In this document: piece by piece, positions 426 to 6,578 of the stretch | Numbering within the stretch: the first letter of the stretch is position 1 | Layout: each line of letters opens with the position of its first letter | Sequence record: LR597660 | From: Escherichia phage T4_ev151 | Direction: 5' to 3' (one strand) | DNA length: 64,000 nt | The notes under the pieces: model-generated | What the model was told of the DNA's origin: nothing | The model's input: only the letters and a program-made list of their open reading frames with translations | Database searches by the model: none | Position numbers and translations under genes: made by a program

Positions 426-446
426 TCCTATTTACTCCAAGTAATA

Positions 447-460
447 GGGGCCGAAGCCCC
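447..460 (-). terminator. GC stem-loop GGGGC-UUCG-GCCCC on the minus-strand transcript, after the 467..1060 gene
   Basis: Perfect 5-bp GC stem with UUCG tetraloop read on the minus strand; no clear U-run, so may act as an RNA stability hairpin rather than a terminator. Confidence 0.45.
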
Positions 461-466
461 TTATCA

Positions 467-1060
467 TTATTTCAGAGAATTAATGTATTCCTGAACATCG
501 GCAGAGGTAGTTTCAACCCCAGAAATATTACCGTTAAAGGTTTCAACTCGAGCAAGGGTATCTTCAATATCAACCTTAGTCAGTGCTGCAATTTCAACTA
601 CATCATCGGCAGTACTAATTCCAAGGGCATTTGCTGCACGAGTTTCACGGATATATTCCAATTTAACCGCAAGTTCTTGACGAGCATCATCTAACTCAAC
701 TACTTTCTTGGCGATTTCAATTCGCATTTCAGCATAACCGTCAGCCTTAGTAGTCAACTGCTCAGCTGTTCGACGATATAGTAAACCGAGTTTAGCATGC
801 ATTGTTACATCTTGGCCTTCGGAAAGAAGTTTACGAATTTCACGCTCTTTTGATTCGGCCTGTCGATTCTTTTCGATAACAAGTTCACGAATACGTTTTT
901 CTTCGTTAATAGATTTAACAGAAGCAGTTTTTAGATCTTTAATTTTATCAAGTAGTTTTGCTGCTGCAGCAGTATACTGTTCTTCGACAGATAGATTTTT
1001 AGCCATAGCAGAACCAAGTTTAGTGCGAATAAACTCAACAATTTTCTTCAGTGTGTTCAT
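467..1060 (-). CDS. coiled-coil protein, possibly PspA/IM30-like
   Basis: 197-aa ORF with SD AAGGAA upstream of ATG; highly charged heptad-rich sequence loosely resembling PspA; no search possible. Confidence 0.6.
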
Positions 1061-1131
1061 AGTATTTCCTTAGGTTAATTGAGATTTAAAATCCGTAGGA
1101 GTATAATACTCTATCGTCAAATTATAGGCTC

Positions 1132-1161
1132 ATAATATCTCAATCATGAGCCTGCGTAAAC
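1132..1161 (-). promoter_or_regulatory. T4 early-type promoter (-35 GTTTACG, 17-bp spacer, -10 TATTAT)
   Basis: Minus-strand read AAGTTTACG-N17-TATTAT upstream of the 467..1060 gene. Confidence 0.5.
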
Positions 1162-1654: not shown

Positions 1655-2218
1655 TTATTTACCTAGTTTAGTTATTATAGCTTCTGCAGCAGCTTTTAGC
1701 TTAGATGCAGTGTTAATACGATTTTTAATTTCAGTATACGCATCGCCAAGAACATCAAGGCTATCAGAATAAACACTTACACTATTGCGTTCGCTATTTG
1801 AAATAGAACCTTTAGTTTTACGATCAAAATCGGTGTACACGTCTTGAAGATCGCGGGCTGCCTTCTTTGCATCATCCAATGCATCAAGAGCTTTATTCAA
1901 AGCATTAACGTATTTTTTGGTGTCGAACATATTCTTAGAAATTTTAACAGGTGCACGTTCAGGAGTAGCTAATACAGATTTAGGAACCTGAGCGCCAGAT
2001 GCCAATTTCTTAGAAATTTTGAAAAATGCTTTATTGAATTTATTTTCTTGACTCATTGTAAAAGAACTATTATCGATGTTGTACATTTCAATAGCTTTAG
2101 CTTTCCACTTAAGAAAATCGCCGCGGTCTTTTGGGTCCAAGTGGAAGAATACTTTAGTAAGATCTGCTTCAGATGGTAATTTTGCTGCTTCGGTTAAAAA
2201 TTCTGCATAGGTTTTCAT
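1655..2218 (-). CDS. internal (capsid-packaged) protein with N-terminal capsid-targeting sequence MKTYAEFLTE (IPIII-like)
   Basis: N-terminus matches the T4 internal-protein CTS consensus MK(T/S)Y(Q/A)EF(I/L)(A/T)E, which ends in the gp21 prohead-protease cleavage motif; SD AAGGAT upstream. Confidence 0.65.
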   Translation of the reverse strand: MKTYAEFLTEAAKLPSEADLTKVFFHLDPKDRGDFLKWKAKAIEMYNIDNSSFTMSQENKFNKAFFKISKKLASGAQVPKSVLATPERAPVKISKNMFDTKKYVNALNKALDALDDAKKAARDLQDVYTDFDRKTKGSISNSERNSVSVYSDSLDVLGDAYTEIKNRINTASKLKAAAEAIITKLGK

Positions 2219-2652: not shown

Positions 2653-2729
2653 TGGTCGAGGCAGAAGGATTCTAACCTTCAACCTACGGATTAGAAATCC
2701 GTTGCTCTATACAATTGAGCTATGCCCCG
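2653..2729 (-). tRNA. tRNA-Arg (anticodon TCT), CCA encoded
   Basis: Manual cloverleaf: acceptor CGGGGCA/TGCCTCG, D-stem GCTC/GAGC, anticodon stem ACGGA/TCCGT with loop TTTCTAA, T-arm GAAGG-TTAGAAT-CCTTC. Confidence 0.85.
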
Positions 2730-2732
2730 TAA

Positions 2733-3398
2733 TTAAAATTTCATTTTTCGACCTTTAAACCATCCTTCTGGAATTGGGTCAGTTTTCTTAATACGTTTAG
2801 AAACTTTTTCATCTAATGAATGAATCCACATCATACCAAATTGGGAATTCTTTTCGCCCTGTTGATGTTTATTTCTGGCGTGAGATTCTTTCATTTTATT
2901 AATAGTTTCAGGAGTATGGGTCTTACCCAAGAAAGATTTAGTATTTAAAAATTTCTCTCTATACTTAGGATTATCCCAAAGCCGTTTAAACCTTTCTGAA
3001 CCCATTTTACGATATTTTTCTTTAAGGTCTGGGTCGTTCTCAAATCTGGTTTTAAAAGCGGCAGCTCCTTTTAAGGAAGCTTCTTTCTTTTTATCCAAAT
3101 ATTCTTTAGTGTTTAAATGGTCCCAACCACCTTCACCACCTAATTTCAAATTATAAACATCAGGGCGCTTTAAAAACTCTTCAGTCACAATATTCTTTTC
3201 TGACTCAAACATAGAGGTTTTATCGTCAAAGAACTCTAATATTTCTTTAGAAAAATTTTCTATACCATACTTATCTTGGGCTCTTTTTAATAATTTACCA
3301 GAACCCATATATCCATCATCTAAATTTTCGGTAGAATGAGCGCCTATATAGATTTTATTATTAATTTTATTTGTTATTTTATAAATGTAATGGAACAT
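2733..3398 (-). CDS. segB: GIY-YIG homing endonuclease SegB-like, within the tRNA cluster
   Basis: 221-aa ORF; N-terminal IYKITN...KIYIGAHST...[14 protein letters not shown] module; position between tRNA subclusters as T4 segB; SD AGGAGA upstream. Confidence 0.85.
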   Translation of the reverse strand: MFHYIYKITNKINNKIYIGAHSTENLDDGYMGSGKLLKRAQDKYGIENFSKEILEFFDDKTSMFESEKNIVTEEFLKRPDVYNLKLGGEGGWDHLNTKEYLDKKKEASLKGAAAFKTRFENDPDLKEKYRKMGSERFKRLWDNPKYREKFLNTKSFLGKTHTPETINKMKESHARNKHQQGEKNSQFGMMWIHSLDEKVSKRIKKTDPIPEGWFKGRKMKF

Positions 3399-3439
3399 AA
3401 ATATCTCCTATTTCTAAGAGTATTTATGTTCTCAAAATA

Positions 3440-3511
3440 TGGCCCTGGGTGGAATTGAACCACCATCTGGCGATTATGAGTCGCTTGCTTGAACCTTCCA
3501 GCTACAGGGCC
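3440..3511 (-). tRNA. tRNA with anticodon CAT (T4 tRNA-Ile-like, lysidine-type, or Met)
   Basis: Manual fold: acceptor GGCCCTG/CAGGGCC, anticodon loop CTCATAA, T-arm GGTGG-TTCAATT-CCACC; CCA not encoded. Confidence 0.75.
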
Positions 3512-3517
3512 TTGATA

Positions 3518-3590
3518 TGCTGATTGACGGAATCGAACCGCCGACATCCTCATTACAAGTGAGGTGCTCTACCTACTGAGCTAAATCAGC
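3518..3590 (-). tRNA. tRNA-Thr (anticodon TGT)
   Basis: Manual fold: acceptor GCTGATT/AATCAGC, D-stem GCTC/GAGC, anticodon stem CCTCA/TGAGG with loop CTTGTAA. Confidence 0.85.
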
Positions 3591-3597
3591 GAAATTA

Positions 3598-3684
3598 CGG
3601 AGGCGATAGGATTTGAACCTATGAGTCGCCGGAGCGACTGCCGGTTTTCAAGACCGGTGCATTAAACCACTCTGCCACGCCTCC
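3598..3684 (-). tRNA. tRNA-Ser (anticodon TGA), long variable arm
   Basis: Manual fold: acceptor GGAGGCG/CGCCTCC, anticodon stem CCGGT/ACCGG with loop CTTGAAA, long variable arm, T-arm ATAGG-TTCAAAT-CCTAT. Confidence 0.85.
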
Positions 3685-3686
3685 AG

Positions 3687-3760
3687 TCTCCGTGGCAGGA
3701 TTTGAACCTACGACATTCTGCTCCCAAAGCAGACGCTCTACCAAACTGAGCTACACGGAG
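3687..3760 (-). tRNA. tRNA-Pro (anticodon TGG)
   Basis: Manual fold: acceptor CTCCGTG/CACGGAG, D-stem GCTC/GAGC, anticodon stem TCTGC/GCAGA with loop TTTGGGA; CCA not encoded. Confidence 0.85.
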
Positions 3761-3772
3761 TAAATTAAATTT

Positions 3773-3844
<72 letters not shown>

Positions 3845-3850
3845 AAACTT

Positions 3851-3937
3851 TGGTACGAGAAGTGGGACTCGAACCCACAAGGAAATCATTCCGCAGCATT
3901 TTAAGTGCTGTGCCTTTACCAATTTGACCATTCTCGC
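3851..3937 (-). tRNA. tRNA-Leu (anticodon TAA), long variable arm, CCA encoded
   Basis: Manual fold: acceptor GCGAGAA/TTCTCGT, anticodon stem CAGCA/TGCTG with loop CTTAAAA, T-arm GTGGG-TTCGAGT-CCCAC. Confidence 0.85.
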
Positions 3938-3943
3938 GCTATA

Positions 3944-4576
3944 TTATTTATTACGTGAAAAAGACTGTTCTATCAATTCTGGACACTTTCGTTCTATCCA
4001 TTTTCTAGCTTTTTGTGGGCTTATACCTATTATTTTAGCAGCTTTACTAACCCATCCAAATTTAGAATAATCGATTTTAACTAATTCTTCGTAAATTTCA
4101 TCAGTTAAAATCTTTTCATTAATATTTACCAGTAAATGATATAATTTATTATCATTAGCAATTTTAATGAATCTTTTATAGTTTCCGCCTTTACTTAAAC
4201 CTAATGAAGTAATTGCAGATGATATAGTAGCCGAATTTAATAGTGCGTTTAAAATTTCTTCATCACTAACATTATAACGCTTTCTATTATTTTTAATATT
4301 TTTACCAGCAAAAGTATCAGTTTGCGAATGGCAATTTGGGCATAATAATCTTAAATTTGATTTAAGATGATTTTTGTTATTTCCATCAATATGGTCTAAT
4401 TGTAGAACAATATGCTTATTTTGCCATTTTGAAATTTTACAAATTGCACACTCATATGGAAAAATATTTTCTTTTATTATTTTGTCTTTCAGCTTTCCTG
4501 TACTAAAATTTGGATGTTTTCCTTCAAAAATTTCAGCTAATTTAGTATCCATAATATGATTCCCAATTATTAACAA
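3944..4576 (-). CDS. HNH homing endonuclease, abutting the 5-prime end of the tRNA cluster
   Basis: 210-aa ORF with HNH core LDHIDGNNKNH...NLRLLCPNCH and an upstream CxxC pair; stop codon 6 nt from tRNA-Leu. Confidence 0.8.
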   Translation of the reverse strand: MLIIGNHIMDTKLAEIFEGKHPNFSTGKLKDKIIKENIFPYECAICKISKWQNKHIVLQLDHIDGNNKNHLKSNLRLLCPNCHSQTDTFAGKNIKNNRKRYNVSDEEILNALLNSATISSAITSLGLSKGGNYKRFIKIANDNKLYHLLVNINEKILTDEIYEELVKIDYSKFGWVSKAAKIIGISPQKARKWIERKCPELIEQSFSRNK

Positions 4577-5581: not shown

Positions 5582-5815
5582 TTATTTTTTACGAAAAATT
5601 GATTTATATTTATCAGCCCATTTCTCGATGACTTTTTCTGGTCCATAGATAACAAAATAATCACCAAACTCTTCACCACCGAGCTGACCGAAATTATCTA
5701 ATGCATCACGAAGAACTCCATGAGGCATTTCGCCCATTTTATCTTTCTTACCAATGTAAATAAACTCAACTTTTACATCAGCAGCTTCAGCAATAAATTC
5801 TTGATACGTTTTCAT
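5582..5815 (-). CDS. ipI: internal protein I-like (capsid-targeting sequence MKTYQEFIAE followed by a small mature domain)
   Basis: ATG at 5815 with GGAGAATAAA SD; N-terminal 10 residues match the T4 IP capsid-targeting sequence; position immediately downstream of 57B as in T4; track ORF is longer through a GTG start. Confidence 0.7.
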   Translation of the reverse strand: MKTYQEFIAEAADVKVEFIYIGKKDKMGEMPHGVLRDALDNFGQLGGEEFGDYFVIYGPEKVIEKWADKYKSIFRKK

Positions 5816-5851
5816 TTTATTCTCCAATTTCACATTTGTTTTGATAGGGTA

Positions 5852-5893: not shown

Positions 5894-6578
<685 letters not shown>

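What the first reader, a model, noticed from the sequence alone, without database searches (positions are those of the whole stretch)
467..1060. Phage-encoded coiled-coil protein with possible PspA/IM30 character
The 197-aa product is almost entirely charged heptad-type sequence (for example [58 protein letters not shown]), which loosely resembles bacterial PspA/Vipp1 membrane-stress proteins. It has its own early promoter and strong SD, so it is expressed right after infection. I am not aware of a described T4 protein of this kind, but I cannot search.
Basis: inference. Interest (0 to 1): 0.45.

Follow-up and report, generated by a model that had tools for sequence, protein, structure and literature searches.

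The report
T4 e.6: phage PspA-like protein
This gene is the counterpart of phage T4's uncharacterised gene e.6, and it encodes a compact, very divergent relative of the bacterial membrane-protecting protein PspA/Vipp1, made early and in large amounts during infection, probably to keep the infected cell's inner membrane sealed.

Summary
The ORF is real: 467..1060, minus strand, 197 aa. It is 98% identical to T4 gene e.6, which is annotated as a conserved hypothetical protein.

- **Direct search:** the protein has no Pfam hit, and a profile of close T4-like homologues finds nothing outside the family.
- **Widened profile:** a family profile reaching 18% identity puts Vipp1 at the top of the PDB (E 8e-5), aligned from residue 1.
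- **Profile-profile:** hhalign against PspA+Vipp1 gives 92-94% probability end to end. Reversed and shuffled controls give 1% or less.
- **Bridge family:** Vi01-like (Ackermannviridae) members link to T4-like e.6 at 99.8% probability. They pass Pfam's PspA_IM30 threshold.
- **Structure:** the AlphaFold model has an N-terminal helix, a long helical hairpin and short C-terminal helices. Its top 13 Foldseek PDB hits are all Vipp1.
- **Expression:** published T4 data show early RNA and LFQ intensity about 20 times that of host PspA. Knock-down has no fitness cost in the laboratory.
- **Prior art:** a 2022 paper proposed PspA homology for phrog_1203, the family e.6 belongs to. No function has been tested.

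Verdict: a new member of a known kind. The likely role, inferred only, is a membrane-coating polymer that preserves membrane integrity and proton-motive force.

The parts
467..1060 (-). CDS, 197 aa; ortholog of T4 e.6 (NP_049742 / UniProt P39224); member of phrog_1203; divergent PspA/IM30-like protein
   Evidence: ORF list. 98% identity to T4 e.6. phrog_1203 at E 1.6e-87. Homology chain to PspA/Vipp1.
995..1057 (-). Residues 2-22: predicted N-terminal cationic amphipathic helix. It corresponds to helix alpha0, the membrane-binding helix of PspA/Vipp1.
   Evidence: Helix 2/3-22 in both models, at low pLDDT of 39-58. Aligns residue 1 to residue 1 with PspA/Vipp1. Net charge +4, family mean +3.4. 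Hydrophobic positions L4, I7, F10, I11 and L15 are conserved.
626..988 (-). Residues 25-145: long helical hairpin (helix 25-80, tip 81-85 with the conserved G..HAKL motif, helix 86-145). It corresponds to the alpha1-alpha2/3 hairpin, the ESCRT-III core.
   Evidence: pLDDT 85-97. Foldseek top hits are Vipp1. Collinear HMM and HH alignments.
470..625 (-). Residues 146-197: C-terminal region that is shortened and remodelled relative to PspA alpha4-alpha5. It has three short helices. Conserved residues are G147, D153, F175 and the end motif DVxxY(L/I)xSLK.
   Evidence: Helices 153-159, 166-173 and 186-196, with pLDDT 50-57 for residues 151-180 and 76-85 at the end. The global hhalign puts F175 opposite the PspA 'ARFESFE' segment and the end motif opposite 'ISEQLAQLKAK', with about 21 PspA residues missing. 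Conservation.
1067..1071 (-). Shine-Dalgarno sequence AAGGA, 6 nt upstream of the ATG
   Evidence: Read from the sequence; identical in T4.
1132..1160 (-). Sigma-70 / T4-early-type promoter match TTTACG-17-TATTAT, just after the e.8 stop. In T4 the same element precedes e.7, which this phage lacks.
   Evidence: Consensus scan, 9 of 12 matches, not above chance for the region as a whole. Conserved in T4. T4 e.6 RNA is classed as early.
1126..1153 (-). Inverted repeat AGGCTCAT-N12-ATGAGCCT that overlaps the promoter match; possibly a transcript-end or stabilising hairpin for e.8
   Evidence: Read from the sequence; conserved in T4. Function not tested.
446..461 (-). GC-rich hairpin AGGGGC-CGAA-GCCCCT as read on the + strand, which is UUCG-looped on the mRNA strand. 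It lies 5 nt after the e.6 stop, between e.6 and e.5.
   Evidence: Terminator-like scan. Annotated as a putative terminator, -13.9 kcal/mol, in phage D5505. Identical in T4.

Best explanation
**Shown.** The gene is the ortholog of T4 e.6. It belongs to a compact protein family of about 195-209 aa (phrog_1203) found as a single copy in T4-like (Straboviridae) and Vi01-like (Ackermannviridae) phages. That family is a remote, full-length homologue of bacterial PspA/IM30/Vipp1, the bacterial branch of the ESCRT-III superfamily. The shared layout is an N-terminal amphipathic helix, a long alpha1-alpha2/3 hairpin, a shortened alpha4 region, and a conserved C-terminal helix. In T4 the RNA is early. 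The protein appears by 3 min and climbs to very high levels.

**Inferred mechanism.** Like PspA/Vipp1, the protein binds the cytoplasmic face of the inner membrane through its cationic N-terminal helix. It then polymerises through the hairpin into a coat or ring scaffold. This scaffold keeps the membrane sealed and the proton-motive force up. It does so at a time when the host cannot mount its own Psp response, because T4 shuts off host gene expression.

This would guard against leaks from three sources:
- DNA injection or superinfection.
- Premature holin triggering.
- Host suicide (abortive-infection) effectors that permeabilise the membrane.

The gene stands alone, with no PspB/C/F-like partners, so it probably acts as an effector rather than a regulator.
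For: **Identity.** 194/197 identical to T4 e.6; phrog_1203 at E 1.6e-87.

**Homology to PspA/IM30:**
- The A2 family profile against the PDB has Vipp1/PspA sequences in eight of the nine best places (E 8.3e-5 to 2.4e-3). All are aligned from residue 1 to about residue 146.
- Pfam PF04012 scores 39.0 and 35.1 bits (cut-off 33.9) on family members P0186 and P0185.
- 32 of 47 Vi01-like clusters carry a precomputed PF04012 assignment. One is named 'PspA/IM30 family protein' by NCBI.
- T4-like e.6 profile against the Vi01-like profile: 99.8%, E 2.5e-29, full length.
- A2 against PspA+Vipp1: 92.3% local and 93.8% global. It is still 86.3% without the Vi01-like rows.
- Controls: reversed 0.9-1.1%, 20 column shuffles at most 0.6%, and circular shifts track the true register.

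**Structure.** The model has mean pLDDT 80.2, with the hairpin above 90. Foldseek's top 13 PDB hits are all Vipp1 (best E 1.9e-4), followed by archaeal CdvB/CdvB2 and PspA.

**Abundance and timing** (PMC9697503 supplement):
- e.6 LFQ is about 0 at 0-1 min, 2.6-9.6e8 at 3 min, and 5-6.5e9 at 20-30 min.
- That equals internal protein IPIII and is about 20 times host PspA, which stays flat at about 3e8.
- Such levels fit a stoichiometric, polymer-forming role.

**Stand-alone gene.** Its neighbours differ in T4, 44RR2.8t, RB43 and FEC14.
Against: - The window protein itself gives no Pfam PspA_IM30 hit at E up to 10.
- A profile of close homologues found no PspA among 1.84 billion representatives. 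It reaches only 8% in hhalign.
- The best unrelated coiled-coil hit in the PDB search (prefoldin, E 1.1e-3) is only about 10-fold weaker than Vipp1.
- The alpha0 helix has low model confidence. Its hydrophobic moment is not exceptional against shuffles (p about 0.14).
- The alpha4 region is about 21 residues shorter than in PspA and is poorly modelled. Residues matching Vipp1 F197/L200 cannot be assigned.
- Knock-down of e.6 in T4 gave no fitness defect under laboratory conditions.
- No membrane binding, polymerisation or phenotype has been measured by anyone, as far as the searchable literature shows.
Confidence: 0.55

Rival explanations
1. The homology is real, but the protein works as a mimic or antagonist of host PspA rather than as a protector. 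It could co-polymerise with host PspA and disable it. It could bind PspF. Or it could act as a decoy for defence systems that use PspA, such as the CBASS cyclase that Cap2 conjugates to PspA.
For: Host PspA is tied to anti-phage signalling in one system: the CBASS cyclase is conjugated exclusively to PspA (PMC11153139). e.6 is made in roughly 20-fold excess over host PspA, which would suit titration. The alpha4 region, where e.6 differs most from PspA, could carry a new interaction surface.
Against: T4 already shuts off host transcription, so blocking PspF-dependent induction would be redundant (established T4 biology). Host PspA levels do not change during infection. The full-length architecture is conserved, including the alpha0 helix and the C-terminal motif, across phages of many host genera. 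That fits a self-sufficient effector better. There is no evidence of any interaction.
Confidence: 0.15
2. The homology is real, but the function has moved away from membranes. On this reading e.6 is an abundant cytoplasmic helical scaffold or adaptor for some phage or host partner, for example in replication, nucleoid organisation or protein quality control.
For: Sequence identity to PspA/Vipp1 is only 14-17%. The alpha4 region is remodelled. In Vi01-like and some T4-like phages the gene sits among DNA-metabolism genes: ligase, helicase loader, nrdD/G and nrdH. Amphipathicity of alpha0 is not statistically exceptional.
Against: The most conserved shared feature is the N-terminal helix in exact register with PspA's membrane-binding alpha0. 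Vi01-like members even share the 'RIF..EANVN' signature, against 'RFADIVNANIN' in PspA. All characterised PspA/IM30 family members act on membranes (established knowledge). The gene neighbourhood is not conserved, so the DNA-metabolism neighbours carry little weight.
Confidence: 0.15
3. There is no real relationship. The protein is a generic charged helical or coiled-coil protein, and its resemblance to PspA reflects composition and heptad periodicity.
Against: Reversed-sequence and column-shuffle controls keep composition and periodicity, yet they collapse to 1% or less, against 92% for the real comparison. Circular shifts always recover the same register. Every alignment starts at residue 1 of both families. 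Pfam's curated threshold is passed by relatives that are themselves linked to e.6 at E 2.5e-29. Foldseek's top 13 hits are a single family.
Confidence: 0.05
4. It is a 'host specificity protein', that is, a virion or tail component, as many GenBank and UniRef records label e.6 homologues.
For: The label appears on many records.
Against: There is no similarity to any tail-fibre or host-range family in Pfam, PHROGs or NCBIfam. The gene is early, not late. It lies outside the structural gene modules. The label has no traceable basis and looks like propagated automatic annotation.
Confidence: 0.02

Closest known systems
PspA / IM30 / Vipp1 / LiaH family (Pfam PF04012), the bacterial branch of the ESCRT-III superfamily
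   Same: The two are collinear from residue 1 to the C-terminus. Shared elements are an amphipathic N-terminal helix, a linker, a roughly 120-residue helical hairpin with a Gly-containing tip and a 'LAREAL'-like motif (HAKLAL in e.6), a conserved Phe in the alpha4 region, and a C-terminal '..L..LK' helix. Foldseek's best matches are Vipp1. The protein is soluble with no transmembrane segment and is similar in size.
   Different: - Identity is only 14-17%, and the T4-type protein fails Pfam's model.
- It is about 25 residues shorter, with alpha4 broken into two short, low-confidence helices.
- Its alpha0 helix is more cationic: +4, against 0 for PspA and +2 for Vipp1.
- It is virus-encoded and driven by a phage early promoter.
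- It has no PspF/PspBC or LiaI-type partner and no conserved neighbours.
- Oligomerisation and membrane activity are untested.
Vi01-like / Kuttervirus phage PspA-like proteins (Salmonella phage SeF3a Gp_125 and Vi01, Klebsiella phage T751; phrog_1203)
   Same: They belong to the same protein family as e.6: hhalign 99.8%, E 2.5e-29, full length, and the same PHROG (PMC9409062). They are similar in length (202 aa) and are also stand-alone early-region genes.
   Different: They are about 22-25% identical to the window protein. They keep a more PspA-like N-terminus ('RIF..EANVN') and pass Pfam PF04012. In FEC14 and SeF3a the next gene encodes a single-pass membrane protein. That protein has no detectable counterpart next to T4 e.6.
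Eukaryotic and archaeal ESCRT-III (Snf7/CHMP, CdvB)
   Different: There is no sequence-level signal. Structural scores sit at the level of unrelated helical bundles. The link runs only through PspA/Vipp1.
BAR / F-BAR / I-BAR domains

Membership tests
PspA/IM30 (Pfam PF04012) | The protein itself scores at or above Pfam's gathering threshold (33.9 bits) | tested here: not met
   There is no PF04012 hit for the window protein at E up to 10, nor for any of 44 close homologues among the 25 most-matched families.
PspA/IM30 (Pfam PF04012) | Homology to the family shown through intermediates or profile-profile comparison | tested here: met
   - P0186 and P0185 score 39.0 and 35.1 bits, above the cut-off.
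- These are linked to T4-like e.6 at 99.8%, E 2.5e-29, and at E 1e-20 by HMM.
- A2 against PspA+Vipp1 gives 92-94%, with controls at 1% or less.
- A2 against the PDB puts Vipp1 first at E 8.3e-5.
PspA/IM30 (Pfam PF04012) | N-terminal amphipathic helix alpha0 (about residues 1-22) in register with the family | tested here: met
   Helix 2/3-22 is predicted. It aligns residue 1 to residue 1, with a conserved hydrophobic face and net positive charge. Caveats: pLDDT is low (39-58), and the hydrophobic moment (0.36) is not exceptional against shuffles.
PspA/IM30 (Pfam PF04012) | Long alpha1-alpha2/3 helical hairpin (the ESCRT-III core fold) | tested here: met
   Helices 25-80 and 86-145 have pLDDT 85-97. 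Foldseek's top 13 PDB hits are Vipp1, with best E 1.9e-4.
PspA/IM30 (Pfam PF04012) | Alpha4 and alpha5 helices, which mediate inter-subunit contacts | tested here: inconclusive
   The global hhalign aligns F175 and the C-terminal DVxxY(L/I)xSLK motif with PspA's 'FESFE' and 'QLAQLK' segments, but with about 21 residues deleted. pLDDT for residues 151-180 is only 50-57.
PspA/IM30 (Pfam PF04012) | Self-assembly into rings, rods or carpets | not testable with these tools
   No multimer prediction or experiment was available. High abundance in T4 infection is compatible with self-assembly but does not demonstrate it.
PspA/IM30 (Pfam PF04012) | Binding to the inner membrane and maintenance of proton-motive force | not testable with these tools
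   This needs liposome binding, localisation and membrane-potential assays.
Psp system (PspF-PspABC operon logic) | Genetic linkage to PspF, PspB/C or other dedicated partners | tested here: not met
   Neighbours differ in T4 (e.5/e.7), 44RR2.8t (nrdH/55.2), RB43 (between nrdD and nrdG) and FEC14 (membrane protein, ligase). T4 e.5 and FEC14 gp041 are unrelated.
ESCRT-III proper (Snf7/CHMP/CdvB) | Direct sequence or structural match to Snf7-type proteins | tested here: inconclusive
BAR domain | Specific sequence or profile match and a crescent dimer | tested here: not met

The most novel reading that the evidence does not exclude
T4 and over a thousand relatives make a very abundant viral ESCRT-III-type polymer. 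It would actively repair or shield the host inner membrane during infection, acting as a counter-measure to membrane-permeabilising abortive-infection effectors such as Rex-like channels, CBASS or other transmembrane effectors, and bacterial gasdermins. This would parallel the way eukaryotic ESCRT-III repairs gasdermin and MLKL pores to delay cell death. It could also explain classic T4 phenomena: resealing after injection, resistance to lysis from without, and stable lysis inhibition. The anti-abortive-infection idea was floated for a Kuttervirus homologue in PMC9409062 but has never been tested.
Probability: 0.3. Interest if true: 0.8.

Novelty: new member of a known kind. Interest (0 to 1): 0.55.

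Why it matters
T4 is the reference virulent phage, yet about a third of its proteins have no known function. In a 2025 genome-wide functional study, e.6 is still listed as 'unknown'.

Placing e.6 in the PspA/IM30 (ESCRT-III) superfamily gives a concrete and cheap hypothesis for one of the abundant T4 early/middle proteins. It would also add virus-encoded members to a membrane-remodelling superfamily otherwise described in cells.

If the protein does keep the infected cell's membrane sealed, it would bear on three questions:
- How phages control lysis timing.
- How they survive superinfection.
- How they defeat host suicide systems that work by depolarising the membrane.

The family is present in many therapeutic-candidate phages of E. 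coli, Klebsiella, Salmonella, Shigella, Yersinia and Aeromonas. Many records also carry a 'host specificity protein' label that should be corrected.

Tried and rejected
1. **Direct Pfam, PDB and NCBIfam/PADLOC searches** with the single protein gave nothing useful.
2. **HMM of 44 close homologues** against 1.84 billion representatives found only the family itself: 45 representatives and no PspA. It did supply the distant members that made the later tests work.
5. **Diversifying the PspA profile** through genome contigs and the protein database returned only Enterobacterales PspA at 78-100% identity. The PspA side of hhalign therefore rests on E. coli-type PspA plus Synechocystis Vipp1, which probably understates the probability.
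6. **A conserved partner gene** was sought and not found. T4 e.5 is unrelated to the membrane protein next to the Vi01-like gene.
7. **Literature search by gene name** ('e.6') found only supplement tables. Searches for phage-encoded PspA or ESCRT-III found a pspA-like gene in Jug huge phages and the 2022 Kuttervirus paper. Nothing was found on T4 e.6.
8. **The eLife 2025 pspA phage-resistance paper** concerns capsule loss in Klebsiella and is not relevant to mechanism.
9. **The 'host specificity protein' annotation** has no supporting evidence.

Full report
**1. What is there**

The window is a T4-like Tequatrovirus. Bases 1-2400 match 668 phage records. The best matches are about 98.8% identical (phages DCP2 and D5505).

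The flagged ORF is exactly as described: minus strand, ATG at 1060, stop at 467-469, 197 aa. It is 194/197 identical to T4 gene e.6 (NP_049742, 'conserved hypothetical protein'). It falls in PHROG phrog_1203, 'unknown function' (E 1.6e-87).

The protein is 22.1 kDa with pI 6.1. It is 34% charged, rich in Ala and Leu, and has no Cys, Trp or Pro and no hydrophobic segment.

**2. Expression signals**

An AAGGA Shine-Dalgarno sits 6 nt before the ATG. About 70 nt upstream, just after the e.8 stop, is TTTACG-17-TATTAT (1160..1132).

Promoter-like matches in this AT-rich region are no more frequent than in shuffles (9 found, 9.1 expected). Sequence alone is therefore weak evidence. The element is conserved in T4, where it precedes e.7, a gene this phage lacks. 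T4's own e.6 has a textbook early promoter, GTTTACA-N17-(TGA)TATTAT, directly upstream.

A GGGGC-UUCG-GCCCC hairpin follows the stop codon (446-461).

Published dual-omics data for T4 class e.6 as early RNA and middle protein (PMC9697503, supplement).

**3. The family**

The word-indexed protein search found 48 clusters. All those that carry a source name are from phages.

tblastn finds the gene in 1106 phage records, with 1107 places in total, so it is effectively single-copy. The genomes are 160-250 kb and come from phages of Escherichia, Klebsiella, Shigella, Aeromonas, Enterobacter, Yersinia, Citrobacter, Salmonella and Serratia.

An HMM of 44 close homologues (A1) was run against 1.84 billion representative proteins. 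It returned only 45 proteins, nearly all 195-209 aa, and no bacterial PspA. By ordinary profile search the family is isolated. That search did yield members down to 18% identity, which I aligned as A2.

**4. Test of the PspA/IM30 idea**

Negative or uninformative results:
- Pfam finds no PspA_IM30 in the window protein or its close homologues, only scattered coiled-coil noise.
- phmmer against the PDB is empty.

Positive results, all pointing to the same family in the same register:
- **(a) PDB profile search.** The A2 profile places Synechocystis Vipp1 first (E 8.3e-5, 2.2e-4, 4.4e-4). Nostoc Vipp1/PspA follows at about 2e-3. Each alignment runs from profile position 1-4 to chain residue 1-3 and on to about residue 146. 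The best unrelated hit, prefoldin, is at 1.1e-3, so the margin is real but modest.
- **(b) Pfam on distant members.** Five of 42 A2 members hit PF04012. P0186 scores 39.0 bits and P0185 scores 35.1 bits, both above the 33.9-bit gathering score. Both align protein residues 6-146 to model positions 2-143.
- **(c) The bridge clade.** These members belong to Vi01-like Ackermannviridae, 77-85% identical to Kuttervirus and Klebsiella phage genes. In that clade 32 of 47 clusters carry a precomputed PF04012 assignment. NCBI names one 'PspA/IM30 family protein'.
- **(d) Link back to T4.** The bridge to T4-type e.6 is solid. hhalign of A1 against the Vi01-like rows gives 99.8%, E 2.5e-29, over the full length. 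The HMM E-values are 1e-20.
- **(e) Profile-profile comparison.** hhalign of A2 against an E. coli-type PspA plus Synechocystis Vipp1 alignment gives 92.3% (E 5.5e-7) locally and 93.8% globally, end to end. Without the Vi01-like rows it is still 86.3%.
- **(f) Controls.** These keep composition and heptad periodicity. Reversed alignments score 0.9-1.1%. Twenty column shuffles score at most 0.6%. Circular shifts of the PspA alignment always recover the true correspondence. With close homologues only, the probability is 8%, but the register is unchanged. This explains why routine annotation misses the relationship.
- **(g) Structure.** AlphaFold with A2 gives mean pLDDT 80.2. It predicts helices 3-22, 25-80, 86-145, 153-159, 166-173 and 186-196. 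The top 13 Foldseek PDB hits are all Vipp1 (best E 1.9e-4, probability 1.00). Archaeal CdvB/CdvB2 and PspA (7abk, 4whe) follow.

**5. Anatomy relative to PspA**

- **alpha0:** residues 2-22 are amphipathic and more cationic than in PspA. Net charge is +4, the family mean is +3.4, PspA is 0 and Vipp1 is +2. Vi01-like members read 'RIFR..EANVN', against 'RFADIVNANIN' in PspA.
- **Hairpin:** helix 25-80, then a tip with a conserved Gly and HAKL(A/G)L (compare 'LAREAL'), then helix 86-145.
- **alpha4 region:** after a nearly invariant G147 this region is about 21 residues shorter than in PspA, is broken into two short helices, and is poorly modelled. It keeps a conserved Phe (F175), placed opposite the PspA 'ARFESFE' segment.
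- **C-terminus:** the end motif DVxxY(L/I)xSLK aligns with PspA 'ISEQLAQLKAK' and Vipp1 'VEDELAALKAS'.

**6. Context**

The gene has no conserved neighbours:

| Phage | Position of the gene |
|---|---|
| T4 | between e.5 and e.7 |
| 44RR2.8t | between an unnamed ORF next to nrdH and an unnamed ORF next to 55.2 |
| RB43 | within the ORF cluster between nrdD and nrdG |
| FEC14 | between an unknown ORF and a single-pass membrane protein, next to DNA ligase |

T4 e.5 is unrelated to that membrane protein. There is no PspF/B/C-like partner, so e.6 is a stand-alone cassette.

**7. Abundance and dispensability**

In the T4 proteome time course (0, 1, 3, 5, 8, 12, 20 and 30 min, in triplicate), LFQ intensities were:

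| Protein | LFQ intensity |
|---|---|
| e.6 (P39224) at 0-1 min | about 0 |
| e.6 at 3 min | 2.6-9.6e8 |
| e.6 at 8 min | about 2.7e9 |
| e.6 at 20-30 min | 5-6.5e9 |
| Head internal protein IPIII, final | 4.4-6.5e9 |
| Gene products on adjacent rows of the table | about 1e8 |
| Host PspA, throughout | flat at 2.6-3.7e8 |

I assumed that the columns are in time order, which the monotonic rise supports. LFQ values are only roughly comparable between proteins.

RNA-targeting CRISPRi knock-down of e.6 gave no fitness defect (score 0.30, p 0.20, 'Not Fit'). The same study lists e.6 as of unknown function and unknown essentiality (PMC11879866, supplement).

**8. Mechanism**

Shown: homology to PspA/IM30, the helix layout, early and abundant expression, stand-alone genetics, and dispensability in the laboratory.

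The following is inferred from established knowledge of PspA/Vipp1. In those proteins alpha0 binds membranes, hairpin-based polymers form rings, rods or carpets, and the polymers stabilise stressed membranes and limit proton leak.

On that basis e.6 most likely coats the inner membrane of the infected cell and keeps it sealed and energised. T4 shuts off host gene expression, so the sigma-54/PspF-dependent Psp response cannot be induced. Consistent with this, host PspA does not rise. A phage-supplied PspA made in large excess would fill that gap. It would protect against leaks from injection or superinfection, against premature holin triggering, and against defence effectors that depolarise the membrane.

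I put about 0.9 on the homology and about 0.5-0.55 on this mechanism.

Rivals:
- A mimic or antagonist of host PspA functions, including the CBASS cyclase-PspA conjugation reported in PMC11153139.
- A diverged, non-membrane scaffold.
- Chance coiled-coil resemblance, which the controls make unlikely.
- The unsupported database label 'host specificity protein'.

**9. Prior knowledge and novelty**

I found no paper that names T4 e.6 as PspA-like.

However, Int J Mol Sci 2022;23:8917 (PMC9409062) reports that Kuttervirus SeF3a Gp_125 hits PDB 4WHE (E. coli PspA) by HHblits. That protein is assigned to phrog_1203. The paper proposes re-annotating phrog_1203 (125 members) as 'phage_shock_protein_A' and suggests an anti-abortive-infection role. 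It does not mention T4.

A pspA-like gene next to terD is also noted in Jug huge phages (PMC12880540).

The kind is therefore known, and the family-level idea has been floated in silico. What this analysis adds:
- The explicit, controlled link to T4 e.6 and the whole T4-like clade.
- The full-length architecture, with a truncated alpha4.
- The abundance and timing data.

No function has been tested by anyone.

**10. Verdict**

This is a new and very divergent member of a known kind, and the gene is experimentally tractable in the best-studied phage. Interest is 0.55.

Noticed in passing
window 1655..2218 (-): This 187-aa ORF begins MKTYAEFLTEAA. It shares only the 12-residue capsid-targeting leader of T4 internal proteins (IPIII begins MKTYQEFIAEAS) and nothing else. 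It belongs to PHROG 2280 (unknown function). T4 has no gene at this position, between e.8 and the small-RNA/tRNA region. It is probably a variant injected internal protein.
   Followed up: partly
window 1061..1161, compared with L001 9907..10360: T4 gene e.7 (336 bp) is absent here. About 55 bp of unrelated sequence replaces it. As a result the early-type promoter and hairpin that follow e.8 now sit directly upstream of e.6.
   Followed up: partly
window 5582..5833 (-): The 83-aa ORF is listed from a GTG start (MKLENK...) but contains MKTYQEFIAEA seven codons in. That is the internal-protein capsid-targeting leader, so the true start is probably the internal ATG. It stands where T4 has ipI, but there is no Pfam hit and the body looks different.
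   Followed up: no
window 2653..4576 (-): The tRNA cluster has 7 tRNAs (Arg, Met, Thr, Ser, Pro, Gly, Leu), against 8 in T4. It is interrupted by a GIY-YIG segB-like gene (2733..3398). It is followed by a 210-aa ORF (3944..4576) with CxxC...CxxC motifs and no Pfam hit. That ORF may be a mobile HNH-type endonuclease, and it sits where T4 has tRNA-Gln.
   Followed up: partly
GenBank/UniRef records of e.6 homologues (H58, H59, H60, H62, P0003, P0034): Many records call this protein 'host specificity protein'. Nothing in Pfam, PHROGs, NCBIfam or the gene's early expression supports that. It looks like a propagated automatic annotation error.
   Followed up: yes
L084 5647..6225 (Escherichia phage FEC14 gp041); also SeF3a gp_126: In Vi01-like phages the PspA-like gene is followed immediately by a gene for a 192-aa single-pass membrane protein (phrog_11433). 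This is reminiscent of PspA-PspB/C or LiaH-LiaI pairs. It has no detectable counterpart next to T4 e.6.
   Followed up: partly
PMC9697503 supplement, file 5 (T4 proteome): Host PspA stays flat (about 3e8 LFQ) throughout T4 infection. PspB is near the detection limit, and PspC and PspF are undetected. No host phage-shock response is visible at the protein level.
   Followed up: partly
window 5894..6352 (-): The 152-aa ORF corresponds in position to T4 57B. It carries two H-x-T/S motifs (HSTICYS, HITLSY), which are typical of 2H phosphoesterases. From memory, this is the anti-CBASS Acb1 family. I did not check this here.
   Followed up: no
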